A stretch of 64,000 bases of DNA from a bacterium. GTDB lineage: Bacteria > UBA8248. The stretch is from contig JAJEJD010000019.1 in assembly GCA_022828125.1 (NCBI GenBank), positions 78,875 through 142,874 on the forward strand, written 5' to 3'. Position 1 is the stretch's first letter. Each line of letters opens with the position of its first letter. Shown piece by piece: positions 4,503-63,571 of the stretch. The translations under genes and the position numbers were made by a program. A model generated the notes under the pieces. The model searched no databases. It saw nothing but the letters and a program-made list of their open reading frames with translations, and was not told where the DNA came from.

Positions 4503-5044
4503 TTTCGCTTGCCGCTTGAGGGGGAAAATCCGATTCTGCCTCTTTTCTCCAGCTCGGGCGGGGCCATCAAGTCCCGGATAGCTTCGAAAACGACCTTGAA
4601 CTGCTTGTCATATTTCTTCTCCATAGAGAAGAGCTTGCGCGCGAGATCGGCATGGCTCGCCTGCATCCGCCGTAACTCCACGAAGGCGCGCATGATCTCG
4701 ATGTTTACCCGAATCGCCCGCTCGCTGCGAAGAACGCTGGAGAGCATGGCGACCCCCTGTTCGGTGAACGCATAAGGCGGGTAACGCCTGCCGCCCCAAC
4801 TTGAGATCACAATTTGTGATCTCAAGTCCTCGAATTCGGGTTTCGTGAGCTGAAACATGAAATCCACCGGGAAGCGCTCGACGTTCCTCCTGACGGCTTG
4901 CACGAGTGTCCTGGTATCGACGCCGTAGAGAGCGGCCAAGTCGGCATCCAGCATGACTTTTTGATCGCGGATGAGATGGATGGACCGCGCGATACGCTTC
5001 ACAGGCGCGGATGGAGAAGCATCCTTCTTTTTCCTTGTTCCCAC
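4499..5044 (-). CDS. ORF6N-domain (KilA-N-like) DNA-binding protein
   Basis: [46 protein letters not shown]...[25 protein letters not shown] matches the ORF6N family signature. Confidence 0.75.
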
Positions 5045-5409
5045 ACTCCGATCCCCTCAGGTCGTCAGCAACGGCGGCGAACCGACACCCCCTGCGCTTC
5101 TGCTCTATCGAGCGTCGGCATGGCGAGGGTCCTCATGGAATCGGTACGAGCAGACTACGCCAATCGCCTCCACGGAGCAAGAGCGATTTCAGCGTGGTTA
5201 AATACCCGACTGGTGAAGAGATTTTTTTGTAGGGGTGTCGAACTTTCCCGAGGAGGGGAAGTTCGAGGGCGTCCGCCCGCCATCGGGAAACGACCCTGTC
5301 TATGTTTCCTACAGGCGGTTCTCAAGCCGCACTTACAGAATACGCATCTCATTGGGCAAGAAATAATCTAAGGGCTATAGAAATTTAGATTGCCATGAAT
5401 ATGGCAAAA

Positions 5410-6330
5410 TTAACCTGTAATTTGATTTATACTAAGATAGATATCCCCAGTTTGCGCAGCGTGCCTCTTCTTTCGCAAAAGCAGCAAAACAAAGTCAATA
5501 CGCTCTTCAAGCACGGCCATTAAATCTGCCCCATCCATCAGAATTATACTCGGGCGTGTTTTTGAATGGGTTTTCACTCCGTCTGGTGAAAATCCATTTA
5601 TGGACAAAAAAAGACCAAGCGTATTATCAAGCTTTCTTTGTACCTTCAGTGAAAAAGCATCTAGATGTTGAACTCCTGCTACTTCTTGTTGCCATTTTGC
5701 TTCAAATAAATAATCAGTCCCTTTTAAAGTAAATGCACCGTCGATTTGTTCTCCAGTATTTTTAAAAGAGGCTTTTGGATCTAAATCGAAGAGTTCAAAT
5801 AAATCACGCATAAAGCGTTCTAGAGCAAATCCACGACATTGTGGAGATGAACCAGTAGCAATATCTTTAAACAGAGCGTTTAATTCTTCGAGCTTTTCCC
5901 TTATCGCTGTATTGTTCTTTATTTTTTCTGCATTTTCTTCTCTTCTTTTTGAAGCATCTTTTTCATCTTTGACTTTATCTTGATGAGGCTCTACTAACTT
6001 TTTCAATTGAGCAACAGCTTTTCGTGCCTTGCGAGCTTTTTGCTCCCCGTCCTCTAAATCTTCTAAATGAGCAAACGAAGTTAAATTTACAACTTCGTAG
6101 CAAAGCTTTGTGAGGGCACCAAGGTGGGCTTCTTGATCTTTCGTTAATTCATCAATCAGGTCAGTAACAATTTGACGCTTATAATTGTTCCAGTTCAATG
6201 ACCCAATCAGTGAACGGCTTACTGTGCAATTCGAGAGAAAGCTTCGAAGGTCATTTTTGTACCAATAGATATTGACCAGCGCTTCCTTTAGGGCATTGAT
6301 TGCTGATGGTGATAATCGCTTGACACTCAT
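5410..6330 (-). CDS. Two-domain protein: unknown coiled-coil/Lys-Glu-rich N-terminal region plus C-terminal Mrr-cat-like PD-(D/E)xK restriction-endonuclease-fold domain
   Basis: 306 aa in the AT-rich island. C-terminus GFALERFMRDLFELF...GEQIDGAF...YLFEAKWQ gives a D...ExK catalytic arrangement typical of Mrr_cat. Confidence 0.6.
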   Translation of the reverse strand: MSVKRLSPSAINALKEALVNIYWYKNDLRSFLSNCTVSRSLIGSLNWNNYKRQIVTDLIDELTKDQEAHLGALTKLCYEVVNLTSFAHLEDLEDGEQKARKARKAVAQLKKLVEPHQDKVKDEKDASKRREENAEKIKNNTAIREKLEELNALFKDIATGSSPQCRGFALERFMRDLFELFDLDPKASFKNTGEQIDGAFTLKGTDYLFEAKWQQEVAGVQHLDAFSLKVQRKLDNTLGLFLSINGFSPDGVKTHSKTRPSIILMDGADLMAVLEERIDFVLLLLRKKRHAAQTGDIYLSINQITG

Positions 6331-6402
6331 TGGCGAAAGTGTTCCATCCTTAAGGCTAGTTTATAATTTCGCAACTCTCGCGAGTTTGGGCTCACCATCT
6401 TT

Positions 6403-6597
6403 CTAATATATACATATGCTTCTGTCGTCTTTTTCACCTTGCTCTATACCTCGCGACATACGGTCTAAGCTTTTCCGACCTCCCAACAAAACCCTTACAC
6501 CCAAATGGTCTATCTGCTCTCGCATGACTCCGTATCCCTCATTTTCTTCGTCAGATACTTCGTCTTTTATGATGATACTAATTGAATTGAATGGCAT
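6403..6597 (-). CDS. Small acidic protein (64 aa), translationally coupled to the upstream HEPN-like gene
   Basis: Its ATG overlaps the stop of the 6598-7266 gene (gtgTGAATGcc on the coding strand). Acidic stretch DEVSDEENEGYG. No recognisable family. Confidence 0.35.
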   Translation of the reverse strand: MPFNSISIIIKDEVSDEENEGYGVMREQIDHLGVRVLLGGRKSLDRMSRGIEQGEKDDRSICIY

Positions 6598-7266
6598 TCA
6601 CACCCAAAGTCGTTTTCCGGTCACACGCCGAACATGGGAATTGACAGCTCCTCCAGTTTTGGCAGCTAAACTTTTGACAAATCCGAAATAATCTGTGACT
6701 TGCTGCTTCTTTACCGATTGAGAGTGCTGACCTCGATGTGCAATTGCGCCTCTTAATTCCACAAACTTATCAAGTTTTGCGGTCGCCCGTGCTACCGTCA
6801 TTTTTTTCGACCAAGACCAAGAGCTGGAAATTTTTCTAATGCCGATTGTCGATAAAAAAAGGTGATCTATATTTTCCGACTTGGGTGTATTTAACCTTCG
6901 ATTTCGCTCTTCACGAAGACTTTCCAATCGATCACTTAAATATATCCGCCAACCGTCATCAGCAATCTTCCACATTTCCAATTCATGATTACTGTTCTTT
7001 AACTCTTTTGCGATTTGCTTCTTCAGCTCCGTCGGAAGTGCGTCTCCTGAATTTGCATGCTTGATGAGATGCTCTAGTCCCTCAGATGCGATATCTTCAC
7101 AATATGCTTCCCAGAAAGCGGTGATAAGAACAATTGCTGATTTGTTCAACACCTCAAGACCATAGCGTCGTCCTTGCTGATTACCACCTTTCATTTCGTG
7201 TAATTCGAGCAATCCCTCAATATCTTTAAGATTTTCATCAAACGCATTTCGAGCAATACTTGCCAT
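6598..7266 (-). CDS. HEPN-like protein (Rx4H motif), possible abortive-infection component
   Basis: 222 aa. ELRGAIAHRGQ fits the HEPN Rx4-6H motif near the C-terminus. Alpha-helical composition. AT-rich codon usage unlike the host. Confidence 0.45.
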   Translation of the reverse strand: MASIARNAFDENLKDIEGLLELHEMKGGNQQGRRYGLEVLNKSAIVLITAFWEAYCEDIASEGLEHLIKHANSGDALPTELKKQIAKELKNSNHELEMWKIADDGWRIYLSDRLESLREERNRRLNTPKSENIDHLFLSTIGIRKISSSWSWSKKMTVARATAKLDKFVELRGAIAHRGQHSQSVKKQQVTDYFGFVKSLAAKTGGAVNSHVRRVTGKRLWV

Positions 7267-48823: not shown

Positions 48824-49012
48824 GCGCGCACGCTTTTGAAGTTCACTCCCCCCTTGAGGGGGAGTCGAGGAAGCCGAGCGGTTTGTGCGAAGGCTGACTC
48901 GGTGGGGGGTGAAATGCGTTTTATCGCCATCCGAATTATACCCCCCACCGGCGCGACTTCTGGCTTCGCCCTCGTCTTGCCGACTCCCCCTCAAGGGGGG
49001 AGTTGATTTCCT
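48824..49012. mobile_element. MITE-like palindromic element, family B (termini CACTCCCCCCTTGAGGGGGAGTC ... GACTCCCCCTCAAGGGGGGAGTG)
   Basis: Long imperfect palindrome. Same family at 50501-50654, 56528-56700, 56863-57080, 58608-58762 and flanking the DUF559 gene at 60358-60853. Confidence 0.7.
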
Positions 49013-49104: not shown

Positions 49105-49650
49105 TTGGACACCCCCATGACGCGAATCGCCATCATGACGGCGCCAGAACTCGAACTCTCGCTCAAGAGGATAGCCTCCGAGATGACCGAGGCGTGCGCG
49201 GCGGATAAGGACATCGCCCTCATCGGCGTGCTCACCCGGGGAGAACCGCTCGCGCGGCGCCTGGCGGGGCACATCGAAGAGATGGAGGGCGTCTCGCCGC
49301 CTCTGGGCGCACTCGACATCGGCCTCCACCGAGACGACGGCGGCCACCCCGCCGAGGGGCGCGGCTTCGAGCGCACCCTCATCGATTTCGACCTGACGGG
49401 CCGGGGCGTGTTCCTTATCGACGACGTCTTCTTCACGGGCAGGACGGCCCGCGCGGCCATCGACGCCCTGATGGAGCTGGGCCGCCCGCGCAAGATATGG
49501 CTCGCCGCCCTCATCGACCGGGGCCACCGCGAGCTCCCCTTCCGGCCCGACTTCATCGGCAAGAACGTGCCCACCGCGCTTGCGGAGCGCATCCGGGTGC
49601 GGACCCGCGAGGTCGACGGCGAGGACGGCGTCTGGCTGGAGCGGGAGTGA
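49105..49650 (+). CDS. pyrR: PyrR-like regulator / uracil phosphoribosyltransferase (second paralog)
   Basis: 181 aa. PRPP motif VFLIDDVFFTGRT. About 45% identical by eye to the operon-encoded PyrR. Confidence 0.75.
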   Translation: MDTPMTRIAIMTAPELELSLKRIASEMTEACAADKDIALIGVLTRGEPLARRLAGHIEEMEGVSPPLGALDIGLHRDDGGHPAEGRGFERTLIDFDLTGRGVFLIDDVFFTGRTARAAIDALMELGRPRKIWLAALIDRGHRELPFRPDFIGKNVPTALAERIRVRTREVDGEDGVWLERE

Positions 49651-50500: not shown

Positions 50501-50654
50501 CACTCCCCCCTTGAGGGGGAGTCACAGAGGCCGAGCGGTTTGTGCGAAGGCCGATGTGGTGGGGGGACATGCCACAGAAAAACTCCCCCCACCGGTTCGG
50601 TTTCGGGCAAAATCCCCCTCACCTCACCGACTCCCCCTCAAGGGGGGAGTGAAT
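50501..50654. mobile_element. MITE family B copy
   Basis: Termini as in 48824-49012. Confidence 0.7.
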
Positions 50655-53718: not shown

Positions 53719-53738
53719 CAGTTGCCCCCTAAGGCTAC

Positions 53739-53765
53739 GCCCCCCTTCCAGGACGGAAGGGGGCG
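53739..53765 (-). terminator. Stem-loop (CCCCCCTTCC-AGGA-CGGAAGGGGG) downstream of the 53861-55588 lipoprotein gene
   Basis: Perfect 10-bp GC-rich stem about 100 nt after the stop. No clear U-tract. Confidence 0.4.
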
Positions 53766-53860
53766 GGCGGTTGAAACCAGCTTCCTGATTATCTTTTGCT
53801 TTGAGAAGCCCCGGCCCCGGGCGTCATGCCGACGCCCGAGACCTGAGGCGTGGTGCTCTG

Positions 53861-55588
53861 TTACTCAGCCTTCCACGAGCCGAACGAGCCAAGAATGCTC
53901 ACGGGCGTATTTCCGCCGCCCGTAGCGGCGAAGGTGCCGGCCGCTGTCGTGGGGTATTCGGTTCGAGCCGCCATGGAATCCGCGGCCTCTTCGTTCGGGC
54001 CGTAGAACTGGCCGCCCCACATGCCTTTCAGCAATTGGCCTCCCACGGTGCCCTCGGCGGCGCCATCGAAGCCGCCTGTGCTGTCGCCGTTCTCTGCGCC
54101 CGCGATGACGGGCGCCCTCTTGAGCTCCAGCATGCCGGCCACATCCATGCCGCCGGCCCTGATGCCTGAGACGCTTCCGGTTACGGCGCCTATGAGCAGT
54201 CCGTCATTTTCGTCGGCGTTGCCGGTTGCCGGAGTGGAATCAGCCCCGACGGTGCCGCCGAAGTTGGCCGTCAGGCTCACGTCCGCGTCAAAGTACTCGA
54301 CCATGCCGCCCGCCGAATACATGCCCGTCGCGACGCCGTTATACGTCGCCGTGCCCGTGAGTTCGGCCCTGACCTGGAACGCGTCGCTGCCGCTCGCGAA
54401 TGCGCCGGCAACGGCCAAGTCCGTGGCTTCCGTAGCGTCCGGAACCGTCAGCCAGACGCCCCAGGCCAGATAGTCGGCGTCGAGCACTGGAGACGTGCCG
54501 GAAGCGATGGGCTGGAACGTATAGCCCTGAAGCGCCACGATAGCGCCCTTGTCGTCGACGCTGATCGAGCAGGCGGTGCCTGCGACGCAGTTGAACCGCC
54601 CCGTCTCCGTCGGGATGTTGTCGGTAGCGGACACGTTACGCGTCCCCGTGAAGGTTTTGCCGTTCCCTGGAATATCGCCCGTGATGATATGGCCTACTGC
54701 CAAGGCGGTAGCGCTATCAGCTCCATAATTCTGCCTCATCATGGGCGCCTGGATGTCCGTGTAGACGTTGACGTAGGTGTCGGAAGCGGCATTCTCCAGC
54801 AACTCTCTGCCCATCCAGTCCCCACGGGTCGTCAGCAACGCCGGGGTTTCGCCTCTCTGCAACGCGGTGCCGACGCCGGCTACTGTGATTGTAGGTCCAT
54901 TCGCGCCGTGAGCCACCGTTGCGCTGGCGGCCGGGGGGCCTTGAGAAACGCTTCCGGCTTCAACACCGGGACCATCAGTTACAGCGGTTTGTTCGGCGGC
55001 TTCACCGGCCACCGTTGCCAACTCCGTGCCGACTCTCGTCGCGTTGGAAACGGCTTTGGGCGCTTCCCGACCCTCGAGTACGGCATTGTCGATGGCCGCC
55101 TGGTTGGTGATCTTGTTCGCCAGCTTGGTCAGACCCAGGCCGCGCTCGCCGGCCGCTTCCATCGCCTTGTCGCGGGCCGCTTCGGCCGCCATCTGGTGCT
55201 CCATGGCCATTGCGGAAGTCGCCGCCGCCTGCGCAGCCGTGTTGGCTTCAGCTGCCATCGCCGCGTACGAGTGCGCGTTGCTGGCCGCCACGGGGTCTTT
55301 CGCGCCGTATACGGCCATCATCGCCGCCGAAGCCGCCGCCGCGGCCGCGTCCTGCGCGCCGCTCAGGGCCATCTCTTCGGCAAGATCCGCAGCGGAGGTG
55401 CAGGAACCGTCCGCGTTATACCGGCCACCGTCACCCTCGCACATTTCCTGCGCGGAAGGTGGTTCCGGCATCGGCATCGGTTCCTCTTCAACGGCAGCCG
55501 TTCCGCCGCCGCCGCAGCCGGCCAGCGTCAGCGCGAAGGCCGCCGCCAGCATGAATGAAAAGATTTTGTTGCCAGTGAGTTTCATCAC
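53861..55588 (-). CDS. Surface lipoprotein with TbpB/fHbp-like C-terminal beta-barrel (paralog 2)
   Basis: Lipobox LTLAGCGGGG. Shares with paralog 1 a Cys-x(n)-Cys loop just after the lipobox, YF(E/D)ADV(T/S)LTA(E/N)F, DYL(L/A)xG(I/V)W and the C-terminal G(Q/M)WxGQF(F/Y)G...GTF(Y/A)AT...GSF motifs. Confidence 0.6.
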   Translation of the reverse strand: MMKLTGNKIFSFMLAAAFALTLAGCGGGGTAAVEEEPMPMPEPPSAQEMCEGDGGRYNADGSCTSAADLAEEMALSGAQDAAAAAASAAMMAVYGAKDPVAASNAHSYAAMAAEANTAAQAAATSAMAMEHQMAAEAARDKAMEAAGERGLGLTKLANKITNQAAIDNAVLEGREAPKAVSNATRVGTELATVAGEAAEQTAVTDGPGVEAGSVSQGPPAASATVAHGANGPTITVAGVGTALQRGETPALLTTRGDWMGRELLENAASDTYVNVYTDIQAPMMRQNYGADSATALAVGHIITGDIPGNGKTFTGTRNVSATDNIPTETGRFNCVAGTACSISVDDKGAIVALQGYTFQPIASGTSPVLDADYLAWGVWLTVPDATEATDLAVAGAFASGSDAFQVRAELTGTATYNGVATGMYSAGGMVEYFDADVSLTANFGGTVGADSTPATGNADENDGLLIGAVTGSVSGIRAGGMDVAGMLELKRAPVIAGAENGDSTGGFDGAAEGTVGGQLLKGMWGGQFYGPNEEAADSMAARTEYPTTAAGTFAATGGGNTPVSILGSFGSWKAE

Positions 55589-55796
55589 TTTTGAGTCCTC
55601 CTAGTCTCGTGATATTAAAGAGCTTTGCAACCAACAAAACTTTGAAGTGTTCGGATTCGACCTCCTTTCTTTGACTTTCCGATATTTCATTTCATTCCGT
55701 TATCGGGCTTCTATCGTTTCATCGAATCATCAACCGGGGCCGGAGCGCGCGGCCGCCGGCCCGGACTCACGCGCCCGGGCCGGTGACCGGCTTATC

Positions 55797-56142
55797 CACG
55801 AGACTGGTGTGGGATTCTTGGCGTTCTTCATGATGGTTAGAGTCCTCCAGCCCCGCGATAAAAAACTTCCTGGCCCCTGGCCGAATTTTTCGTTTCAGGC
55901 TCCTGCCGGGCCTTTCCTTGAATCGATCACGAGTCTGGAGAGGGATTTGTGGCGTGGTTCATCATGAGTTGAGTCCTCTAGCCTCGTGATATTTCGTCTT
56001 CCGGCTCTCGCCGGGCTTGCCGTTCCCGCCTGAGCGCCGCCGAGTGCACGGGCCGCCGGGCTTTCCGGTTCACGAGACTGGAGGGGGATTGGTGGCGTGG
56101 TTCGCCGTGGGTTGAGTCCTCTGGCCTCGTGATGTTTGCTGC
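55797..56142 (-). repeat. Three tandem ~140-bp repeat units, each reproducing the 5' leader/RBS/start-codon region of the downstream lipoprotein gene (bounded by TCACGAG...CTCGTGA inverted ends)
   Basis: Units at 55797-55859, 55928-55990 and 56083-56142 match the genuine leader at 55590-55620 (ATCACGAGACTAGGAGGACTCAAAAGTGATG on the coding strand). Two units carry mini-ORFs (MMNHATNPSPDS, MKNAKNPTPVSW...). Confidence 0.6.
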
Positions 56143-56527
56143 AAGCGCCCGGCTAGTTACTGGGTCGTCGTCTTCCGGGCCGTCAAGTTACTTGAGCGAA
56201 CAATCTACACCCCGGGGTTCCCGCTCTCTCCGTCTTTCGGGAGAAATCCGCGTTGCATGGAGCGGGCGGCCCTGAGGGCGACTACTCACGTCTATTGCTT
56301 GACATATATGATAGTGCGGCAAGCTTTCCGCTTTTGTCAACCCTTTATTTCAACTTGCGCGCAACTTGCATTCCGTTCCGGGCGGTTCGGGTATGGTTCG
56401 ATTATGAACCATCGGGGATCGGGGGTCAAACGGGATTGGGGAGGGAGCGTTTGACCCGATTGAGGAATGAGGGTTTGACGGGATTGGGGAGGGGCTGTTG
56501 AAAAAGTCCCGTGGAGCGATTTGGGCT

Positions 56528-56700
56528 GAGCGCACGCTTTTGAAGTTCACTCCCCCCTTGAGGGGGAGTCACAGAGGCCGAGCGGTTTGTGCGAAGGCTG
56601 AATCGGTGGGGGGACATGCCACAGAAAAGCTCCCCCCACCGAGTCAGCCTTCACCTGTCGGTTCGGCTTCCTCGACTCCCCCTCAAGGGGGGAGTGAATT
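56528..56700. mobile_element. MITE family B copy (with conserved left flank GCGCACGCTTTTGAAGTT)
   Basis: Same termini and flank as 48824-49012. Confidence 0.7.
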
Positions 56701-56793: not shown

Positions 56794-56845
56794 AACCCCC
56801 CCTACCCCCCCTTGTCAGGGGGGTATAAAAAGGCGATGCCCACCG
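56794..56845. mobile_element. Solo end of MITE family A
   Basis: AACCCCCCCTACCCCCCCTTGTCAGGGGGGTATAAAAAGGCGATGCC. Confidence 0.6.
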
Positions 56846-56862: not shown

Positions 56863-57080
56863 CACTCCCCCCTTGAGGGTTATTACCAAAGAAACAAGAA
56901 GGGAATTCACTCCCCCCTTGAGGGGGAGTCGAAGAGCTGAGGGCGTAAGCCCGAAAGCGATTCGGTGGGGGGAGTTTTTTTGTGGCATGTCCCCCCACCG
57001 ATTCAGCCTTCGCACAAACCGCTCGGCTTCATCGTCTGGCTTTCCCCTCGGGAAGCCAGACCCTCAAGGGGGGAGTTGAT
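56863..57080. mobile_element. Composite/nested MITE family B copy (duplicated left terminus)
   Basis: Two CACTCCCCCCTTGAGGG left ends 45 nt apart, then the perfectly palindromic core GCCGAGCGGTTTGTGCGAAGGC. Confidence 0.65.
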
Positions 57081-57139: not shown

Positions 57140-57302
57140 CCCCCTTGTCAGGGATAAAGGCCCCCCCCCTACCCCCCTTGACAGGGGGGCATGAAAAAGC
57201 AAAACCCTGGCCCGGTGGTGGGCGTCGCCTTTTTTCATATCCCCCACATGCCGGGGCGTCGGCCTTTTTTACCCCCCTGTCAAGGGGGGGTAGGGGGGGT
57301 TG
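57140..57302. mobile_element. Full-length MITE family A copy
   Basis: Both TIRs present. Internal palindrome GCAAAACCCTGGCCCGG...CCGGGGCGTCGGCC. Confidence 0.7.
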
Positions 57303-57563
57303 ATTTCATCAATCACGTTTCCCGTAGGAGCGGGGTGCCCGCCCGTTGTTGATATACGACCCTGGGACGCAGGACAGGCACGGAGGCCTGTCCCTACGGG
57401 ATCGAACCCGATTGATGCGGGAGGGATTCGTCGTAAAAACCCCCTACCCCCCTTCCCGCCGTTGTTGTAAGATGTCCCTCTCGGCCCGGGGGCGGCGCGG
57501 GTCTTGTAACCGCATTTGTATGCCACCGCATCCCGAGGCCGGGGGTTTTCGGGAGAATCCGAC

Positions 57564-58526
57564 ATGGCTCCCCCGCCCGACATTCCGGACCGCCTGCTCG
57601 TCGCCGTCGGCGGCAACGCGACCCACCCGCCCGAGATACGCGGCACCGCGGCGGAACAGGCCGCCATCGCCGCAGCGACCGGCCGCGCCCTGCTCCCGCT
57701 TCTGCAACTCCAGAACGAACTCATCATCACGCACGGGAACGGTCCCGTGGTCGGCAAGATACTCATGCGCCAGGCGGTATCGAGCGAGCAGGTGACGCCG
57801 ATGACGCTCGACATCTGCGTCGCCCACAGCCAGGGGGGCATCGCCTATCTCCTCATGCAGGCGTTCGAGAACGCGTTAAGACGCGCAGGGGATCCCCGCC
57901 ACGTGGTCTGCCTGCTGACGCAGGTGGAGGTCGACCCGGCGGACCCGGCCTTCGACGCGCCGACCAAGTTCGTGGGCTACACCTACACGGAAGAAGAGGC
58001 GAGGCGGTATGAACGCGAGATGGGCTGGACGTTCAAAGAAGACGGCGGCCGCGGCTGGCGGCACGTCGTCGCATCCCCAAAGCCTAAACACATCGTGGAC
58101 ATCTCGCTCATCGAGACGATCGCCAAAAGCGGCGCGGTCGTGATAGCGGGCGGCGGCGGGGGCATCCCCGTCGTGCGGGAAGCGGACGGGGCGCGGCGCG
58201 GACTCGCCGCCGTCATCGACAAGGATTTGACGTCCGCCCTCATGGCGAACGTCCTGGGGATCGAGACGATGATGATCCTGACCGCCGTGCCGAGGGTGGC
58301 GATCCACTTCGGGACGCCCGAGCAAAGAGAGCTGGATATGGTGTCGCTCGACGAGATCAAGAGATACCACGCCCAGGGCCACTTCCCGCCCGGCAGCATG
58401 GGCCCCAAGATAGAGGCGGCGATCCGCTTTCTGGAAGGCGGCGGCGAGCGGGTGCACATCGCCGCGCTGGAAGACGCCGTCCCCGCCCTGAGGGGTGATG
58501 CGGGGACGTGTGTGTATAAGAGGTAA
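57564..58526 (+). CDS. arcC: Carbamate kinase family protein
   Basis: Start at MAPPPDIPDRLLVAVGGNA. Amino-acid kinase fold motifs VAVGGNA, ITHGNGPQVG-like ITHGNGPVVG, GGGGGIPV. Confidence 0.8.
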   Translation: MAPPPDIPDRLLVAVGGNATHPPEIRGTAAEQAAIAAATGRALLPLLQLQNELIITHGNGPVVGKILMRQAVSSEQVTPMTLDICVAHSQGGIAYLLMQAFENALRRAGDPRHVVCLLTQVEVDPADPAFDAPTKFVGYTYTEEEARRYEREMGWTFKEDGGRGWRHVVASPKPKHIVDISLIETIAKSGAVVIAGGGGGIPVVREADGARRGLAAVIDKDLTSALMANVLGIETMMILTAVPRVAIHFGTPEQRELDMVSLDEIKRYHAQGHFPPGSMGPKIEAAIRFLEGGGERVHIAALEDAVPALRGDAGTCVYKR

Positions 58527-58607
58527 GGATGGGCGGTTTTGGTTCGTCATTCCGGCCTTGAGCCGGAATGACGGCGGTGGGCAATCGCGATTGATGAGGG
58601 AGGAATA

Positions 58608-58762
58608 CACTCCCCCCTTGAGGGGGAGTCACAGAGGCCGAGCGGTTTGTGCGAAGGCCGATGTGGTGGGGGGAGATTTATTCTGTGGCATGTCCCCCCA
58701 CCGATTCGGTTTCGGGTTTACACCCTCACCTCATCGACTCCCCCTCAAGGGGGGAGTGAATC
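58608..58762. mobile_element. MITE family B copy
   Basis: As above. Confidence 0.7.
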
Positions 58763-58896
58763 CTTCTCTTCGTCGGCGGGGAATTCCCTCCAAGGGGGAG
58801 CGACTTCGGACAGGCACGGAGGCCTGTCCCTACGATTCCTCCCGCGTCAATCGCGTTTCACCTGTAGGGGGTTGTTGAAAAAACCTGTGTAAAAAA

Positions 58897-59046
58897 ACCA
58901 CCCCCCCCTACCCCCCCTTGACAGGGGGGTAAGAAAAAGCAAAACCCCTGGCCCGGCGGCGGGCGTCGTCTTTTTTCATATCCTCCACTTGCCGGGGCGG
59001 CGGCCTTTTTATACCCCCCTGTCAAGGGGGGGTAGGGGGGGTTGGT
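58897..59046. mobile_element. Full-length MITE family A copy
   Basis: Near-identical to 57140-57302. Confidence 0.7.
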
Positions 59047-59223
59047 TTTCAAGGCGAAAGGGTACGACCCCGGACAGGTCGCGACCTGCCCCTACAAAAC
59101 CCTCCTCTTATTATATACACCCCCTTTGCACACCCTCTCCCTGCGGTGCTACGTTTTTCCCCATAAAAATTCCGGTATCCACGAGCGCGCAGGCGCGCGC
59201 CTTTTCAAAAGGGGGGACGCAAG

Positions 59224-60327
59224 ATGCAGGCCGACCTGTTCCGCGTGGCGATGGACTCGCCCGACGACATCTCAGGGGTCGCCGCTCTCATCGAGGGGGG
59301 CGAATGCCGGGCGGAGGACGTCGTCGGCATCATGGGCAAGACCGAGGGCAACGGCTGCGTGAACGATTTCTCGCGCGGGTTCAGCAACTTCGTCCTGCTC
59401 GATTATTTCTCGCGCGCGATGGGCAAGAGCCGCGAGGAGGTGGAGGCGCAGATCGCCCTCATCATGTCCGGCGGAACCGAAGGCGTCATGTGCCCGCACT
59501 TCTCCGTGTTCACGAAGTCGGAGAACGGCGCGGGCGACGGGCGCGCCAAGCGCCTCGCCATCGCCTCGGGCCACACGGCGGATTTTTTCCCTGAGGAGAT
59601 GGGCCGGATGGCGCAGGTGCGCGCGACGGCGGACCTCGTGCGGAGGCTGATGGAAGAGGCGCAGATCGAGAGCGCGGCGGATCTCCACTTCGTCCAGGTG
59701 AAGTGCCCGCTCCTGACGGGCGAGCGCATGGCGGACGCGGCGAAGCGCGGGAAGAGCGTCTGCACGGAGGACACGTATAAGTCGATGGGCTACTCGCGCG
59801 GGGCTTCGGCGCTGGGGGTGGCCCTGGCGGCGGGCGAGGTGGCCGAAAGCGCGTTGAGCGACGAGGTGATTTGCAGGGACTGGTCGCTCCAATCGGGCGT
59901 CGCCTCGACCTCGGCGGGCATCGAGCTCATGTGCAACGAGGCGATGGTGATCGGCAACAGCGCGGCCTGGGGCGGGGACCTCGTCGTCGGCCACAGCGTG
60001 ATGGAAGACGCCATCGACAGGGATGCCGTGCGCGAGGCCATCGTGAACGCAGGGGTGGCGTTCGAGTGGTCGCTCACGCCCGAGCAGCGCGCGCGCGTCG
60101 TGAACGTCTTCGCCAAGTGCGAGGCCTCCCCCGACGGGCTGGTGCGCGGGCGGCGGCACACGATGCTCGACGACTCGGACATCAACAACACGCGCCACGC
60201 GCGCTCGGTGGTGAACGCGGTGGTGTCCTCTATCGTCGGCGACACGATGACCTACGTCTCGGGCGGGGCCGAGCACCAGGGCCCTCCCGGCGGCGGCCCC
60301 GTCGCGGCGGTCGTAAGGGCGGGGTAG
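59224..60327 (+). CDS. Ring-opening amidohydrolase of the cyanuric acid amidohydrolase / barbiturase (AtzD/TrzD) family
   Basis: 367 aa. N-terminus ...GKTEGNGCVNDFSRG and the internal threefold repeat architecture are characteristic of this family. Confidence 0.6.
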   Translation: MQADLFRVAMDSPDDISGVAALIEGGECRAEDVVGIMGKTEGNGCVNDFSRGFSNFVLLDYFSRAMGKSREEVEAQIALIMSGGTEGVMCPHFSVFTKSENGAGDGRAKRLAIASGHTADFFPEEMGRMAQVRATADLVRRLMEEAQIESAADLHFVQVKCPLLTGERMADAAKRGKSVCTEDTYKSMGYSRGASALGVALAAGEVAESALSDEVICRDWSLQSGVASTSAGIELMCNEAMVIGNSAAWGGDLVVGHSVMEDAIDRDAVREAIVNAGVAFEWSLTPEQRARVVNVFAKCEASPDGLVRGRRHTMLDDSDINNTRHARSVVNAVVSSIVGDTMTYVSGGAEHQGPPGGGPVAAVVRAG

Positions 60328-60357
60328 GGGGGGGCCGCTACCAGCGAGATATGCAAT

Positions 60358-60853
60358 CACTCCCCCCTTGAGGGGGAGTCGAAGAGGCCGAGCCATTGGG
60401 CGAAGGCCGATTCGGTGGGGGGTAAAACGAGATGGGTGAAAGCGGACGTCAATACAATCCCCGGCATTTGGGAAACGCCCGCGCCCTCCGCCGTGATCAC
60501 ACCGACGCTGAAGGGTTGCTGTGGAGTCGCCTGCGCGACAAACAGATCGATGGCCACAAATTCCGCCGCCAGCAACCGATAGGTCCGTATATCGCGGATT
60601 TCGCGTGCATGACGGAAAAACTGCTGATCGAACTCGACGGCGGAGGCCATGCGGAGCAAAAAGCAAAGGACCGCCGGCGCGAAGAATATCTGCGGCGCAG
60701 TGGTTATCGCGTGCTGCGTTTCTGGAATACGGAGGTCTTTGAGAATCTTTCCGGTGTTCTGGAAAGAGTGCGAGAAGCGCTAGCAGACCCCCCCACCGAT
60801 TCAGCCTTCGCATAAATCGCTCGGCTTCATCGACTCCCCCTCAAGGGGGGAGT
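60358..60853 (+). mobile_element. Full-length family B element carrying a DUF559 endonuclease gene (putative autonomous progenitor of the family B MITEs)
   Basis: Left end CACTCCCCCCTTGAGGGGGAGTCGAAGAGGCCGAGC...GGTGGGGGG and right end CCCCCCACCGATTCAGCCTTCGCA...GACTCCCCCTCAAGGGGGGAGTG are the same arms that abut directly in the MITE copies. Confidence 0.65.
60432..60815 (+). CDS. DUF559 (Vsr/Mrr-like PD-(D/E)xK) endonuclease-domain protein
   Basis: 127 aa. ...AEGLLWSRLRDKQIDGHKFRRQQPIGPYIADFACMTEKLLIELDGGGHAEQKAKDRRREEYLRRSGYRVLRFWNTEV is the canonical DUF559 pattern. Confidence 0.8.
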   Translation: MGESGRQYNPRHLGNARALRRDHTDAEGLLWSRLRDKQIDGHKFRRQQPIGPYIADFACMTEKLLIELDGGGHAEQKAKDRRREEYLRRSGYRVLRFWNTEVFENLSGVLERVREALADPPTDSAFA

Positions 60854-60957
60854 GATTTTATCTCTGCTTGGTCGACAAAACCTACAGAGGTCCCCCCTTC
60901 GGACAGGGGCGGAGGCCTGTCCGCTACGAATGGAACCTGTTTGAACAGAGAAGAACC

Positions 60958-62022
60958 CTACCCCGCCCTCACATTCCGCCGCGCCTGCACGAAGACGACC
61001 GTGAGGACGATGATGGCCTGGAAGACGAACACGGCGGCGCCGGGGAGGCCGATGCTGCGCTGTAAGGAATCCGACCCCGAGACGAGGACGGCGAACACGG
61101 CGGCGGCTATAGTGACGCCGAGCGGGTTGTTGCGCCCGATGACGGCGATGAGGATGGCCATCGCCCCGTAGTTGGGCGCGCCCTCAGCGCCGCTGATGCC
61201 CAATAACAGGCTCTGGTGGAAGCCCGAGACCTCGATGGCGCCCGCGAGGCCCGAGAGCGCGCCGCAGGTCGGCATGATGATGAGCGTGACGCGCGCGACG
61301 TTGATGCCGCCGAAGCGCGCGGCGCGGGGGTTGTCGCCCACCGCGCGTATCTCGTAACCCGCGATGGTGCGCGTCATGAAGAAGTACATGCCGACCGCCG
61401 CCACGAGCGCGATGATGAAGCCCGCGTGCGCGCCGGCCCTCGGCATCACCTGCGGCAGCACGGAGGCGTCGGGGATGGGGAGCGAGATGGCCTCGCCCGC
61501 CAGCGGGTCGTTCCAGGGGCCGTTCGCGAGGTAGTCCACGAGGTAGAGCGCCACGAAGTTCAGCATGACCGTCACGAATATCTCGCTCACCTGGAAGCGC
61601 ACGCGCAGGATGCCGGGGATGAAGCCCCAGAACCACCCGCCGAGGATTCCGCCCAGCAGTCCCAGCGGGACGAAGACCGGCCAGGGGAGGTTCATGCCTT
61701 CCAGGGCGAAGGCCGTGCCCGTCATGCCGATGGCGCCCGCGTATATCTGCCCGTCCACGCCGATGTTGAAGTGGCCGCCGCGCATCCCGAAGGCCACCGC
61801 GAGCGAGGCGAGAAGCAGCGGGGAGAACTTGTTGAGCGTCTGCGCGAATCCGCCCCACGTGCCGAGCGAGGAGCGAAGCACCGTCCCGAGCGCCACGAGC
61901 ACGTCGCCGCCGAAGGCGACGATGAAGACGGCCCCGCAGGCGAGCGCCAGCGCCCCCGCCGCCGCGTAGGTGACGGCGAACTCCATCGCGACTTTTTTCT
62001 TCTCGCTCACGCCCGCCGCCAT
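60958..62022 (-). CDS. ABC transporter permease (BMP-family nucleoside/simple-sugar type)
   Basis: 354 aa, about 9 TM helices. Confidence 0.85.
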   Translation of the reverse strand: MAAGVSEKKKVAMEFAVTYAAAGALALACGAVFIVAFGGDVLVALGTVLRSSLGTWGGFAQTLNKFSPLLLASLAVAFGMRGGHFNIGVDGQIYAGAIGMTGTAFALEGMNLPWPVFVPLGLLGGILGGWFWGFIPGILRVRFQVSEIFVTVMLNFVALYLVDYLANGPWNDPLAGEAISLPIPDASVLPQVMPRAGAHAGFIIALVAAVGMYFFMTRTIAGYEIRAVGDNPRAARFGGINVARVTLIIMPTCGALSGLAGAIEVSGFHQSLLLGISGAEGAPNYGAMAILIAVIGRNNPLGVTIAAAVFAVLVSGSDSLQRSIGLPGAAVFVFQAIIVLTVVFVQARRNVRAG

Positions 62023-62023
62023 C

Positions 62024-63571
62024 TCAGGACACCTCTTCTCTCTGGCCCGCCATGAGCGCGCCTATCCGGTAGATGTCGTATTCAGGGCCGTCGAAAGCGC
62101 CCAGAATCTCGCCCGCATAGATGGCGACGATGCGGTCGCTCATCAGGCAGAGCTCGTCCAGGTCTTCCGATATCAGCAGCACGCCCGCCCCGCCCGCGCG
62201 AAGCTCGCGCAGCCGGCCGTGCACGAACGAGGCGGCCATGACGTCGAGCCCGCGCGTGGGGTTGTTCGCGATCATCACCTTCCCGCCCGTCTCGTGGGCG
62301 AGCATGACCGCGCGCGCCACGATGGTCTTCTGGATGTTCCCGCCCGAGAGGTGCGCGGCCGGCACGTGCTCGTTGCGCGCGAGGATGTTGAATTCCGCGA
62401 TGGCGTTCCTGCCGAGCTCATGAGCGGCCTCGCGCTCGAATACGCCGCGCCGCCTGAAGATGTGGGGATGGAGGCCCAGCACGAAGTTCTCGGCCAGGCT
62501 CAGGCCCGGCAGAATCCCCTCCTCTATCCTGTCCTGCGGCAGGAGGCTCATCCCCCGCGCGATGCGCCCGGCCACCGAGAGAGCGGAGACCTCCTCGCCG
62601 TCGATGTGGACCTCCCCTTCTTCCACCTCGATCAGGCCGGCCACCGCTTCCGCCAGCTCCTTCTGGCCGTTCCCCGAGATGCCCGCCATGCCGACGATGA
62701 GCCCCCGGGGGACGTCGAAGGCGACGCCGGTGAGCGGCACCCCCCACTTCGCCGACGTGCGCACCCCCCGCACCGAAAGCGCGGGCTCCCCCTCCCTGGC
62801 CACCGAGGGTCCGGTCGGCCGCTCGCCCTCGGGAGGCATGCCGCGCTCGCCCATCATCATCCGGACGAGTATTTCGCGGGTGGCTTCTTCTCTGGGGATG
62901 GTGTCTATCTTCCGCCCGCCGCGGAACACGGTGATGCGGTCGCAGTTGTCCAGCACCTCCTGGATCTTGTGCGTGATGAAGACGACCGTCAGCCCCCCCC
63001 TGGCGAAGGATTTCAGGATAGTGAACAGCCCGTCCACCTCGTGGGGGGTCAGCATGGTCGTCGGCTCGTCCAGGATCAGGATGTCCGCGCCGTGGTAGAG
63101 GGCCTTCAGTATCTCGACCTTCTGCTGGATGCCCGCGGGCAGGCTCTTCACCCCCTCATCGAGCGGGATGGAGAGGCCGTAATTCGCCGCGAGTTCCTCC
63201 ACGGAGCTGCGCCGGGCTTCGACGTCGAGCCGCCAGCGCGAGCCCTCGCGGCCCAGCAGGATGTTCTCGAGCGCGGTGAAGTTGCCGATCAGCTCCACGT
63301 GCTGGTGCACCATCCCGACGCCGACCGCGATCGCATCCTGGGGCGAGTGGATGTCCACCTCGCGCCCTTCGATCGCGATCTGTCCCTCATCCATGCGGTA
63401 GAGGCCGCTCAGGATGTTCATGAGCGTGGTCTTGCCCGCGCCGTTCTCGCCCAGGAGGGCGTGGATCTCCCCCTCCGCGGCCTCGAAGTCGACCGCGTCC
63501 AGGGCGCGGACTTCCCCGAAGGACTTGCTGACGCCGTACATCTCGACGCAAGCGGCGGTTTTTTCCGTCAT
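62024..63571 (-). CDS. ABC transporter ATP-binding protein with duplicated ABC domains (nucleoside/sugar type)
   Basis: Two ABC domains; the first has a canonical Walker A (GENGAGKTT), the second domain's P-loop is degenerate. LSGG signatures in both. Confidence 0.9.
   Translation of the reverse strand: MTEKTAACVEMYGVSKSFGEVRALDAVDFEAAEGEIHALLGENGAGKTTLMNILSGLYRMDEGQIAIEGREVDIHSPQDAIAVGVGMVHQHVELIGNFTALENILLGREGSRWRLDVEARRSSVEELAANYGLSIPLDEGVKSLPAGIQQKVEILKALYHGADILILDEPTTMLTPHEVDGLFTILKSFARGGLTVVFITHKIQEVLDNCDRITVFRGGRKIDTIPREEATREILVRMMMGERGMPPEGERPTGPSVAREGEPALSVRGVRTSAKWGVPLTGVAFDVPRGLIVGMAGISGNGQKELAEAVAGLIEVEEGEVHIDGEEVSALSVAGRIARGMSLLPQDRIEEGILPGLSLAENFVLGLHPHIFRRRGVFEREAAHELGRNAIAEFNILARNEHVPAAHLSGGNIQKTIVARAVMLAHETGGKVMIANNPTRGLDVMAASFVHGRLRELRAGGAGVLLISEDLDELCLMSDRIVAIYAGEILGAFDGPEYDIYRIGALMAGQREEVS

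What the first reader, a model, noticed from the sequence alone, without database searches (positions are those of the whole stretch)
55590..56150. Tandem array that triplicates the leader/RBS/start region of a surface-lipoprotein gene
Upstream of the 53861-55588 lipoprotein (coding strand is minus) the true leader ATCACGAGACTAGGAGGACTCAAAAGTGATG recurs three more times at about 140-bp intervals. Each copy is framed by TCACGAG/CTCGTGA inverted ends, and two carry an AGAGGA RBS plus mini-ORFs of 12 or more codons. Repeated leaders in front of a surface-exposed lipoprotein could drive phase/antigenic variation by recombination. They could instead act as upstream leader peptides, or be footprints of serial gene duplication with deletion.
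Basis: seen in the sequence. Interest (0 to 1): 0.55.

Follow-up and report, generated by a model that had tools for sequence, protein, structure and literature searches.

The report
Tandem decoy ribosome-site hairpins in leader
Upstream of a surface-lipoprotein gene lies a conserved, roughly 0.8 kb structured leader whose three 64-nt hairpins each copy the gene's ribosome-binding region and pair it with its complement, most likely an undescribed RNA switch controlling translation rather than a recombination device or a mobile repeat.

Summary
On the minus strand there are three 64-nt units (56133-56070, 55990-55927, 55859-55796). Each repeats the first ~40 nt of the true leader/RBS/start (55613-55583) and folds back through TCACGAG/CTCGTGA ends.

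- The units are not a generic MITE. There is one locus per genome in seven species genomes, and no other copy in the 64-kb window.
- The array is identical in three assemblies of this strain.
- The same position-specific unit types (A, B, B', C; 3-4 per array) lie upstream of the syntenic lipoprotein gene in 16 lineages.
- Units are better conserved than synonymous sites of the neighbouring gene, while spacers are not.
- Stem changes are almost all G·U-compatible on the sense strand only.
- A covariation-supported 5' RNA domain precedes the array.

Every unit's 3' arm is an anti-RBS, and type A pairs better with the true RBS than with its own decoy arm. Local and shifted pairing registers are predicted to be nearly isoenergetic, and one compensatory change supports an inter-unit helix.

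Best reading: a new cis-regulatory leader RNA that gates translation by competition between decoy and true initiation regions. Transcription, the trigger and uORF use are untested.

The parts
56401..56429 (-). Predicted sigma-70-type promoter P1 (TTGACC, 17 nt, CATAAT).
   Evidence: Consensus scan. The hexamers TTGAYN and CATAMT and the 17-nt spacing are kept in 10 lineages while the spacer sequence varies. Transcription was not measured.
56308..56365 (-). Nearly invariant block GTTGCGCGCAAGTT...TTGACA-21 nt-TATCAT. It is either a second promoter or operator region, or the 5' part of the RNA.
   Evidence: Conserved in 10 lineages, spacer included. The 21-nt spacing is atypical for sigma-70. 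Its role is unresolved.
56134..56321 (-). Structured 5' domain of the leader: seven helices and an invariant loop GGAAGACGACGACCCAG.
   Evidence: RNAalifold on 11 lineages gives 36 pairs, 6 of them with compensatory changes. In one search, 95.4% of cells are paired against about 41% when partners are slid, and 0 of 500 shuffles reach the covariation score. No Rfam match.
56070..56133 (-). Unit A: a decoy initiation-region hairpin without a start codon. Its 3' arm CCUCCAGUCUCGUGA is the best complement of the true initiation region.
   Evidence: Duplex energy is -21.2 kcal/mol with its own 5' arm and -26.6 with the true initiation region.
56001..56014 (-). Spacer hairpin CCGGC-GAGA-GCCGG (GNRA tetraloop) just before unit B.
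   Evidence: The same stem carries GGAA, GUGA or GGGA loops in other lineages. It forms the apex of the inter-unit helix.
55927..55990 (-). Unit B: a decoy hairpin with AGAGGA and AUGAUG. Its 12-codon mini-ORF (55965-55927) stops at the UGA that ends the 3' arm.
   Evidence: This strain alone carries a U-to-A change (CCAGACUCG) that weakens the stem.
55796..55859 (-). Unit C: a decoy hairpin with GGAGGA and AUG. Its basal stem has four G·U pairs, and the 3' arm ends in UGG, so its ORF (55831-55730) runs on.
   Evidence: The C type is always the last unit, 269-292 nt before the start codon.
55733..55792 (-). Cluster of conserved GC-rich hairpins after unit C. No U-tract follows them.
   Evidence: Consensus fold on 11 lineages. 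No terminator-like site on the minus strand in the leader.
55660..55667 (-). Invariant Shine-Dalgarno-like AAGGAGGU with no start codon at the right distance.
   Evidence: Read directly from the sequences of all lineages. Its function is inferred only.
55583..55613 (-). True translation initiation region AUCACGAGACUAGGAGGACUCAAAAGUGAUG. The SD GGAGGA is at 55601-55596, GUG at 55588 and AUG at 55585.
   Evidence: Identical in all 16 lineages apart from the length of the A-run and one GUG-to-GUU change in L020. It has A (GAGACU) where the decoys have G. Unique in the window.
53861..55588 (-). Lipoprotein gene (575 aa, lipobox LAGC). The signal peptide is conserved and the body is hypervariable. 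The fold is TbpB/HphA/NHBA-like.

Best explanation
The three units are parts of one long (about 0.75-1 kb), conserved, highly structured 5' leader RNA of the lipoprotein mRNA.

Each unit has two halves. The 5' arm is a decoy copy of the gene's own translation initiation region (an SD-like AGAGGA or GGAGGA, the spacer CUCAAC, and usually an AUG). The 3' arm is an anti-initiation-region sequence (CCCUCUCCAGUCUCGUGA). The leader therefore holds n anti-RBS arms and n+1 possible partners: n decoys plus the true site.

Two states follow.
- Each anti-RBS arm pairs with its own decoy (local hairpins, expected to form first during transcription). The true RBS is then free and the lipoprotein is translated.
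- The pairing shifts, either as a chain (3' arm of unit i with 5' arm of unit i+1, last arm with the true site) or directly (unit A's 3' arm with the true site). The SD and the sequence 5' of it are then sequestered and translation is blocked.

Shown: the units are conserved, locus-specific and strand-specific, and they are complementary to the true site.
Inferred: that the leader is transcribed as one RNA, that the two folds interconvert, and that this gates translation.
Unknown: the trigger. Candidates are the covariation-supported 5' domain acting as a sensor, ribosomes on the mini-ORFs, or slow refolding of ageing mRNA.
For: 1. Conservation and linkage. In 16 lineages, 3-4 units of the same ordered types lie between a conserved promoter region and the identical true initiation region of the syntenic lipoprotein gene.
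2. Not dispersed. An exact-pattern scan of 185,579 species genomes found one locus in each of seven genomes. nhmmer and a covariance model find no other copy in the window or at paralogue loci.
3. Selection. Units are 83-100% identical, against 63-81% at four-fold sites of the adjacent gene and about 36-65% for most spacers.
4. RNA level and strand. Across the five stem pairs that vary, 22 unit copies carry a one-sided change that keeps the pair, all but three through G·U on the sense strand (A-U to G-U, G-C to G-U), and only a few copies lose the pair. The 5' domain has 6 compensatory pairs, and 0 of 500 shuffles reach its covariation score.
5. Single transcript plausible. There are no internal promoter- or terminator-like sites on the minus strand and no conserved ORF in the leader.
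6. Anti-RBS logic. The 3' arms pair with the true site through 10 Watson-Crick pairs, a bulged A, and CCUCC:GGAGG. The true site has A where the decoys have G, opposite a U kept in 29 of 33 units. Duplex energy for type A is -21.2 kcal/mol with its own arm and -26.6 with the true site. The true site is the better partner for 27 of 37 arms.
7. Alternative register.
   - The penultimate 3' arm pairs with the last 5' arm at -26 to -28.5 kcal/mol, against -21 to -24 with its own arm.
   - That helix has 15 pairs with 96.9% of cells paired, and one compensatory A-U to C-G change in the L017/L018/L021 clade that breaks the local pair.
   - Inter-unit modules fold well on their own (z -2.6 to -4.4).
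   - Folds constrained to the local or the shifted register differ by only +1.2 kcal/mol on average.
   - Unconstrained folds pair the true site with an upstream 3' arm in 6 of 8 lineages.
Against: - No transcript data exist. The promoter, the transcription start and co-transcription with the gene are predictions.
- There is no double compensatory change in the unit stems, and the shuffle test there is not significant.
- Support for the shifted register rests on one evolutionary event (19 of 500 shuffles reach it). One change in L017 unit 1 goes against it.
- Because the arms are homologous, any 3' arm is expected to complement any 5' arm, the true site included.
- Minimum-free-energy folds of 800-1000-nt RNAs are unreliable. 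In the 'local' constrained folds the SD is still predicted to be partly paired.
- The true site can also fold on itself (UAUCAC:GUGAUG).
- The strong sequence conservation of the loops (GGACUCAAC, AAUCCC) is more than a pure pairing model needs. It would fit recognition by a protein or by the ribosome.
Confidence: 0.5

Rival explanations
1. Ribosome-engaging decoys or leader peptides. The units act mainly as real initiation sites. Ribosomes load on units B and C and translate the 12-codon (or longer) mini-ORFs. Their occupancy or stalling on the proline-rich end (NPSPVS-stop, KPPPVS-stop) over the 3' arm decides whether the downstream site is open, as in ermC- or cat-type translational attenuation.
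For: - Types B, B' and C keep an SD-like sequence 8-11 nt before an AUG in nearly all lineages.
- The ORF always ends at the UGA that closes the 3' arm.
- The SD-to-AUG spacer CUCAAC is conserved like that of the true site.
- Within AUG-bearing units the only indels inside the ORF are one 3-nt deletion and one 1-nt insertion, whereas AUG-less type A tolerates 1-nt indels.
Against: - Type A never has a start codon, and L012_9 B' has lost its start.
- The peptide sequences vary without an excess of synonymous change.
- The run-on ORF of unit C is frame-shifted in L020.
- The SD of each decoy lies inside the stem.
- The indel counts are far too small for a test.
Confidence: 0.17
2. A binding-site array for a trans-acting regulator. 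A protein or small RNA recognises the initiation-region hairpin (TCACGAG...GGACUCAA). The upstream copies recruit or titrate it in cis, giving cooperative repression or buffering, in the way CsrB/RsmZ sponges or repeated operators work.
For: - Loop and arm sequences are conserved beyond what pairing needs, and GGACUC is invariant in 33 of 33 units and in the true site.
- The number of sites (3-4) is maintained across lineages.
Against: - No candidate regulator gene is linked (Pfam on neighbours).
- The GGA motifs lie in stems, not in loops as CsrA sites do.
- The Rfam PyrR-site model and all other families fail to match.
- In the 64-kb window only the true site matches the motif, so no other target is seen there.
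Confidence: 0.13
3. A static stabiliser or standby leader. The hairpins and SD-like sequences protect an abundant lipoprotein mRNA from 5' decay, or hold 30S subunits near the start. There is no switching.
For: - The leader holds many stable hairpins.
- An invariant AAGGAGGU with no start codon lies at 55667-55660. It resembles the STAB-SD element of Bacillus thuringiensis cryIIIA (recalled from the literature, not checked here).
- The first helix of the 5' domain would sit near a possible 5' end.
Against: - It does not explain why the 3' arms keep U opposite the decoy G, which matches the A of the true site.
- It does not explain why type-specific differences favour inter-unit pairing.
- It does not explain why the decoys copy the start-codon region.
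Confidence: 0.1
4. A DNA-level device, or no function. Either the direct repeats promote recombination that varies expression, or they are decaying remnants of duplications or of a small mobile element.
For: - Unit number differs between lineages (3 or 4, and the first unit differs in type), so units have been gained and lost.
- The lipoprotein body has been exchanged between loci during evolution.
Against: - The array is identical in three assemblies of this strain.
- Unit types are orthologous and under purifying selection.
- There is one locus per genome.
- Stem changes are asymmetric between strands, G·U on the sense strand only.
- Deleting the sequence between repeats would not silence the gene.
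Confidence: 0.05

Closest known systems
Anti-ribosome-binding-site thermosensor of meningococcal fHbp (Loh et al. 2016, PMC4999090)
   Same: A surface lipoprotein of the same structural class. Its translation is controlled by more than one anti-RBS sequence within the same mRNA.
   Different: In fHbp the two anti-RBS sequences lie inside the coding region, are not pre-paired with decoy RBS copies, and respond to temperature. Here 3-4 anti-RBS arms lie 250-700 nt upstream, each with its own decoy, and the signal is unknown. There is no sequence relationship.
Successive metastable SD-sequestering hairpins in the Helicobacter pylori aapA3 toxin mRNA (Masachis et al. 2019, PMC6733600)
   Same: Several anti-SD sequences in one mRNA. 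Co-transcriptional (kinetic) folds and final folds decide whether the SD is accessible.
   Different: In aapA3 the transient hairpins mask the real SD during transcription. Here the transient (local) hairpins would mask the anti-SD arms and leave the real SD free. This is not a toxin-antitoxin setting, and aapA3 has no tandem decoy copies.
Translational attenuation with leader peptides (ermC and cat type; textbook knowledge, not checked here)
   Same: Mutually exclusive pairings (1:2 and 3:4 versus 2:3) decide whether the SD is free. A short upstream ORF overlaps one arm.
   Different: Those systems have one leader ORF and four segments. Here there are six to eight arms plus the true site, the first unit has no ORF, and no stalling signal has been shown.
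MITE, REP or Correia-type repeats
   Same: Short intergenic elements with inverted ends that can fold as hairpins.
   Different: Those occur in tens to hundreds of dispersed copies. These units occur at one locus per genome, in a fixed order and orientation, with orthologous types. A true dispersed element of this genome (ACTCCCCCCTTGAGGGGGAGT pairs) is unrelated.
CsrB/RsmZ-type sponge RNAs
   Same: Repeated hairpins that carry GGA-containing, SD-like motifs.
   Different: Those are separate small RNAs with GGA in the loops, and they act in trans on CsrA. Here the GGA lies in stems and the repeats are fused in cis to a single target gene.

Membership tests
Dispersed MITE/REP-type element | Many copies scattered through the genome, unrelated to a particular gene. 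| tested here: not met
   One locus per genome in seven genomes, including five chromosomes of 1.6-4.5 Mb. No other copy in the window by nhmmer or by covariance model.
Dispersed MITE/REP-type element | Terminal inverted repeats. | tested here: met
   TCACGAG/CTCGTGA ends. However, the changes in them are G·U-compatible on one strand only, which fits RNA better than a transposase site.
Any described RNA family (Rfam 15, including riboswitches, PyrR site, ribosomal leaders, CsrB/Rsm) | Match to the family covariance model. | tested here: not met
   Nothing at gathering score in the 64-kb window. Nothing in the array at E up to 5. Only two chance-level hits at E above 5 in a scan limited to the leader.
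Cis-acting anti-SD translational switch | A sequence in the same mRNA that is complementary to the SD/start region. | tested here: met
   The 3' arms pair with the true site at -18.4 to -26.6 kcal/mol, covering GGAGG.
Cis-acting anti-SD translational switch | Mutually exclusive alternative pairings of comparable stability. | tested here: inconclusive
   Predicted only. Constrained folds differ by +1.2 kcal/mol on average. There is one compensatory event for the inter-unit helix. No probing data.
Cis-acting anti-SD translational switch | A demonstrated effect on translation of the downstream gene. | not testable with these tools
   Needs reporter fusions or toeprinting.
Leader-peptide (uORF) attenuator | A conserved, translatable upstream ORF with its own SD. 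| tested here: inconclusive
   Types B, B' and C keep SD plus AUG, and the ORF ends at the arm's UGA. Type A never has a start, and the peptides are not conserved as proteins.
CsrA-binding sponge RNA | Many GGA motifs exposed in hairpin loops, on a separate small RNA. | tested here: not met
   The GGA lies in the stem in both registers. There are only 3-4 units, fused to the mRNA leader.
Phase-variation or recombination switch | Length or orientation heterogeneity within a population or between isolates of one strain. | tested here: not met
   The window, L001 and L002 (different samples) are 100% identical over 1.3-1.9 kb, array included. Read-level data were not available.
Slam-dependent surface lipoproteins (TbpB, HphA, NHBA, fHbp class), for the gene product | Lipobox, plus a C-terminal beta-barrel with a handle domain. 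| tested here: met
   LAGC lipobox. Model pLDDT 84.8. Foldseek matches to TbpB, HphA and the NHBA C-terminal domain at E 4e-5 to 8e-4 and probability 0.97-1.0, with low whole-chain TM scores. No Pfam or PDB sequence match.
Slam-dependent surface lipoproteins (TbpB, HphA, NHBA, fHbp class), for the gene product | An associated Slam (DUF560) translocon. | tested here: not met
   No DUF560 among the neighbouring ORFs scanned in the window. The rest of the genome was not examined.

The most novel reading that the evidence does not exclude
The leader is a new class of multi-state riboregulator, a 'register-shift relay'. A structured sensor domain at the 5' end decides whether the first decoy arm is available. 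That decision would travel through a chain of 3-4 decoy/anti-RBS modules (3' arm of unit i swapping from its own decoy to the next one) over 500-700 nt, until the last or the best arm closes the true ribosome-binding site. This would give long-range, possibly delayed or switch-like control of a hypervariable surface lipoprotein.
Probability: 0.25. Interest if true: 0.8.

Novelty: new variant of a known kind. Interest (0 to 1): 0.62.

Why it matters
If correct, this is an undescribed family of large cis-regulatory RNA. It is absent from Rfam and conserved across at least 16 uncultivated lineages, one deposited as Nitrospinota.

Its design principle is unusual. The gene's own initiation region is copied several times as a decoy for its own inhibitor. 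That gives a concrete, easily mutated system for studying kinetic versus thermodynamic control of RNA folding, and signalling along an mRNA over hundreds of nucleotides.

It also marks a conserved 'expression site' (leader plus signal peptide) in front of a hypervariable TbpB-like lipoprotein. This suggests that production of this surface protein is tightly controlled in these bacteria.

Tried and rejected
- Tandem Repeats Finder does not see the array, because the spacers are dissimilar.
- Rfam gives no family in three scans. This includes the PyrR binding site, which I considered because a pyrR-like gene lies at 49105-49650 and the units contain CCAGAGG.
- Pfam and a PDB sequence search give nothing for the lipoprotein. 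Only the fold search was informative.
- Covariation in the unit stems shows no double compensatory change, and the shuffle test is not significant.
- Independent small-RNA genes were rejected. There are no promoter- or terminator-like sites inside the array on the minus strand.
- A protein gene on either strand of the leader was rejected. No ATG-initiated ORF of 50 aa or more is conserved across lineages, and the window, L012_9 and L017 have none.
- CRISPR-like and integron attC-like readings were considered and dropped. The spacers are orthologous between species, and no cas or integrase genes or core sites are present.
- The closest protein relative (85% identity, L003/L004) and the paralogue P0016 (L019) have a different leader and no units. 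The array goes with the locus, the leader and the signal peptide, not with the protein body.
- The metagenome scan with the true-site pattern returned only two loci, so population-level variation could not be studied.
Full report
**The observation.** All coordinates below are on the minus strand, which is the coding strand of the lipoprotein gene 55588-53861.

- The repeat finder reports three copies of a 68-nt sequence at 55796-55863, 55927-55994 and 56070-56137 (74, 100 and 87% identity to the reference copy; spacing 131 and 143 bp).
- Read directly, the core of each copy is 64 nt:
  - unit A, 56133-56070: ATCACGAGGCCAGAGGACTCAACCCACGGCGAACCACGCCACCAATCCCCCTCCAGTCTCGTGA
  - unit B, 55990-55927
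  - unit C, 55859-55796
- The true leader, 55613-55583, is ATCACGAGACTAGGAGGACTCAAAAGTGATG. It shares only the first half of a unit.
- A profile of the three units finds them at E 1e-19 to 1e-22. It finds the true leader over profile positions 2-27 only (E 0.078), and nothing else in the window below E 1.
- A covariance model gives 83-88 bits for the three units and no other hit.
- The 21-nt core is expected 0.01 times by chance.
- Each unit folds as a hairpin closed by TCACGAG/CTCGTGA.
- Tandem Repeats Finder misses the array because the spacers are unrelated.
- Mini-ORFs exist in B (12 codons) and in C (33 codons). Unit A has no start codon.

**Related sequences.**

- The lipoprotein has many relatives in uncultivated genomes.
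- Three assemblies from different samples (the window, L001, L002) are identical through the array.
- At the syntenic locus (carbamate kinase, intergenic region, lipoprotein 1, lipoprotein 2), other lineages carry the same arrangement. L005, L006/L007, L012+L009, L014 and L015 have four units. L008, L010, L011, L013, L017, L018, L020, L021 and L022 have three.
- The units fall into ordered, orthologous types:
  - A has no AUG and an apical GGCG/CGCC stem.
  - B has AUGAUG.
  - B' has AGGAUG.
  - C is always last. It has an extended CUGG/CCAG stem, and its 3' end is UGG instead of UGA.
- The distance from unit C to the start codon is constant at 269-292 nt. Inter-unit spacing varies from 98 to 201 nt.
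- The true initiation region is identical in all lineages, apart from the length of the A-run and one GUG-to-GUU change in L020.
- An exact-pattern scan of one genome for each of 185,579 species found the unit in seven genomes only, at a single locus each.
- The closest protein relative (85%, L003/L004) and a paralogue (L019) sit at other loci, with a different leader and signal peptide and no units.
- Of the 120 best protein relatives, 26 carry the array-type N-terminus MKLTxNKIFSFMLAAAFALTLAGC.

The array therefore belongs to a conserved 'expression site', and the protein body behind it is exchangeable.

**Selection.**

- Against the window, orthologous units are 83-100% identical. Four-fold synonymous sites of the adjacent carbamate kinase gene are 63-81% identical, and most spacers are 36-65% with many indels.
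- Changes in the basal stem are almost all one-sided and pair-preserving on the sense strand only: A-U to G-U at two positions (3 and 6 sequences), G-C to G-U, G-U to G-C, and U-A to U-G.
- On the opposite strand these would be C·A mismatches. This fits an RNA read in the direction of the gene.
- No stem pair shows a double compensatory change, and the shuffle control is not significant. The hairpin is therefore conserved but not proven by covariation.

**The rest of the leader.**

- A promoter-like site, TTGACC-17-CATAAT at 56429-56401, keeps its hexamers and spacing in the 10 lineages for which this upstream region was recovered, while the spacer sequence varies.
- A nearly invariant block follows, containing TTGACA-21-TATCAT (56340-56308).
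- Between that block and unit A lies a 190-nt domain (56321-56134) with a consensus structure of 36 pairs. Of its cells, 95.4% are paired against about 41% when partners are slid. Six pairs show compensatory changes, and 0 of 500 shuffles reach the covariation score. This is the strongest evidence that the region works as RNA.
- Spacers carry CCGGC-GNRA-GCCGG hairpins whose tetraloops differ between lineages (GAGA, GGAA, GUGA, GGGA).
- After unit C come conserved GC-rich hairpins with no U-tract, and then an invariant AAGGAGGU with no start codon.
- There is no promoter- or terminator-like site on the minus strand inside the array.
- There is no conserved ORF on either strand.
- There is no Rfam match.

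**Mechanism.** The second half of every unit (CCCUCUCCAGUCUCGUGA or a close variant) is complementary to its own first half. Because the first half is a copy of the true site, it is also complementary to the true initiation region. The details go beyond shared ancestry.

- The true site reads GAGACUAGGAGG where the decoys read GAGGCYAGAGG.
- The 3' arms keep a U (29 of 33 units) that forms a wobble pair with the decoy G but a Watson-Crick pair with the A of the true site.
- With one bulged A, the true site forms 15 pairs with a type-A arm, including GGAGG:CCUCC.
- Duplex energy for type A is -21.2 kcal/mol with its own arm and -26.6 with the true site. Over all 37 arms, the true site is the better partner in 27.
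- The penultimate unit's 3' arm pairs far better with the 5' arm of unit C (-26 to -28.5) than with its own arm (-21 to -24).
- That inter-unit helix has 15 pairs with 96.9% of cells paired. In the L017/L018/L021 clade, a U-to-G change in unit C's 5' arm is matched by an A-to-C change in the preceding unit's 3' arm. This breaks the local pair and restores the inter-unit pair (19 of 500 shuffles reach the score).
- In L010, a C-to-U change in unit C's 3' arm keeps the local pair as a wobble and adds a pair with the true site.
- Modules made of a 3' arm, the spacer and the next 5' arm fold well on their own (z -2.6 to -4.4, except the window's mutated B-C module).
- Whole leaders were folded under constraints in 13 lineages, either as all-local hairpins or as the shifted register with the last arm on the true site. 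The two folds differ by +1.2 kcal/mol on average (range -8.4 to +14.1) out of about -300 to -390.
- Unconstrained folds put the true site on an upstream 3' arm in 6 of 8 lineages.

I therefore propose that n anti-RBS arms choose among n+1 partners. Local hairpins, favoured during transcription, leave the true site open. A shifted or long-range pairing closes it.

What is shown is conservation, strand specificity and complementarity. The switching itself, the trigger and the effect on translation are inferred. Long-RNA energy predictions are weak evidence, and the single compensatory event is thin.

**Rivals.**

- Ribosome loading and mini-ORF translation could be the real function or the trigger. 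The AUG is kept in B, B' and C, and the ORF ends at the arm's UGA. Against this, A never has a start codon and the peptides are not conserved.
- A trans-acting binder would explain the conserved loops. No partner is in sight, and no other target site was seen in the 64-kb window.
- A purely stabilising leader does not explain the tuning of the arms.
- Recombination-driven variation, decaying duplicates and a MITE are contradicted.

**Comparison with known systems.**

- It works most like cis-acting anti-SD devices. Meningococcal fHbp is also a surface lipoprotein and uses two anti-RBS sequences in its coding region (PMC4999090). The H. pylori aapA3 mRNA uses successive metastable SD-sequestering hairpins (PMC6733600). 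Leader-peptide attenuators use alternative pairings (textbook knowledge).
- It is not a member of any described RNA family.
- It differs from all of these in having several tandem decoy/anti-RBS modules upstream, behind a separate structured domain.
- The gene product resembles TbpB, HphA and NHBA-type surface lipoproteins by fold. There is no Pfam or PDB sequence match.

**Verdict.** This is a real, conserved, locus-specific RNA-level feature. It is a new variant of a known kind of control, and its mechanism is only partly resolved. Interest 0.62.

Noticed in passing
window 48845-49003, 50502-50650, 56549-56695, 56909-56929, 58609-58757, 60359-60853: A dispersed MITE/REP-like element. The 21-nt palindrome ACTCCCCCCTTGAGGGGGAGT occurs 11 times exactly in the window, where none is expected by chance. 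Most copies form inverted pairs about 126-140 bp apart, between the long ORFs. The same element appears in the flanks of L001, L003 and L008. It is unrelated to the leader units.
   Followed up: partly
window 56434-56493: A 24-nt tandem repeat (GATTGGGGAGGGAGCGTTTGACCC, 2.5 copies) lies just upstream of, and overlapping, the -35 of predicted promoter P1. Similar repeats containing GTCAAAC/GTTTGAC occur in other lineages (L005). These are candidate transcription-factor sites.
   Followed up: no
window 53861-55588, versus L003 4139-5725 and L019: The lipoprotein body appears to have been exchanged between loci. Residues 45-575 are 86% identical to a protein at a different locus, which has a transposase upstream, a different leader and signal peptide, and no units. 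Array-linked proteins at the syntenic locus are only 37-80% identical. This suggests a conserved expression site with swappable bodies.
   Followed up: partly
window 56803-56825, 57169-57191, 57270-57292: A second family of G/C-run hairpins (CCCCCCTTGTCAGGGGGG), some followed by T-runs and scored as terminator-like on both strands, lies between the carbamate kinase gene and the leader promoter.
   Followed up: no
window 55583-55614: The true initiation region can fold on itself. UAUCAC (55614-55609) pairs with GUGAUG (55588-55583), which would mask the start codon. The pair at the variable position is A-U in 7 sequences and G·U in 4.
   Followed up: partly
L010 5938-5990: A second lipoprotein gene in genome OZ253442.1 has a related leader (TTATAACGAGACCAGAGGGGACTCAAAAAGTGATGAAACTCACC) and the same signal-peptide start, but no units were detected in front of it.
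   Followed up: no
window 53719-53860: The paralogous lipoprotein gene (53718-52078) has an unrelated initiation region (GGGGGCAACTGATGGAAATG). It is preceded by a GC-rich hairpin (CCCCCTTCCGTCCTGGAAGGGGGG). It is therefore not under the same decoy scheme.
   Followed up: partly
window 49105-49650 and 57516-63571: The neighbourhood looks pyrimidine/nucleoside-related by eye and from precomputed Pfam hits: a PyrR-like ORF, carbamate kinase (AA_kinase), an AtzD/TrzD-family amidohydrolase, and an ABC transporter. No PyrR-site RNA was found anywhere in the window.
   Followed up: partly
window 5001-7000: A stretch with much lower G+C (0.42-0.44, against about 0.6 elsewhere).
   Followed up: no
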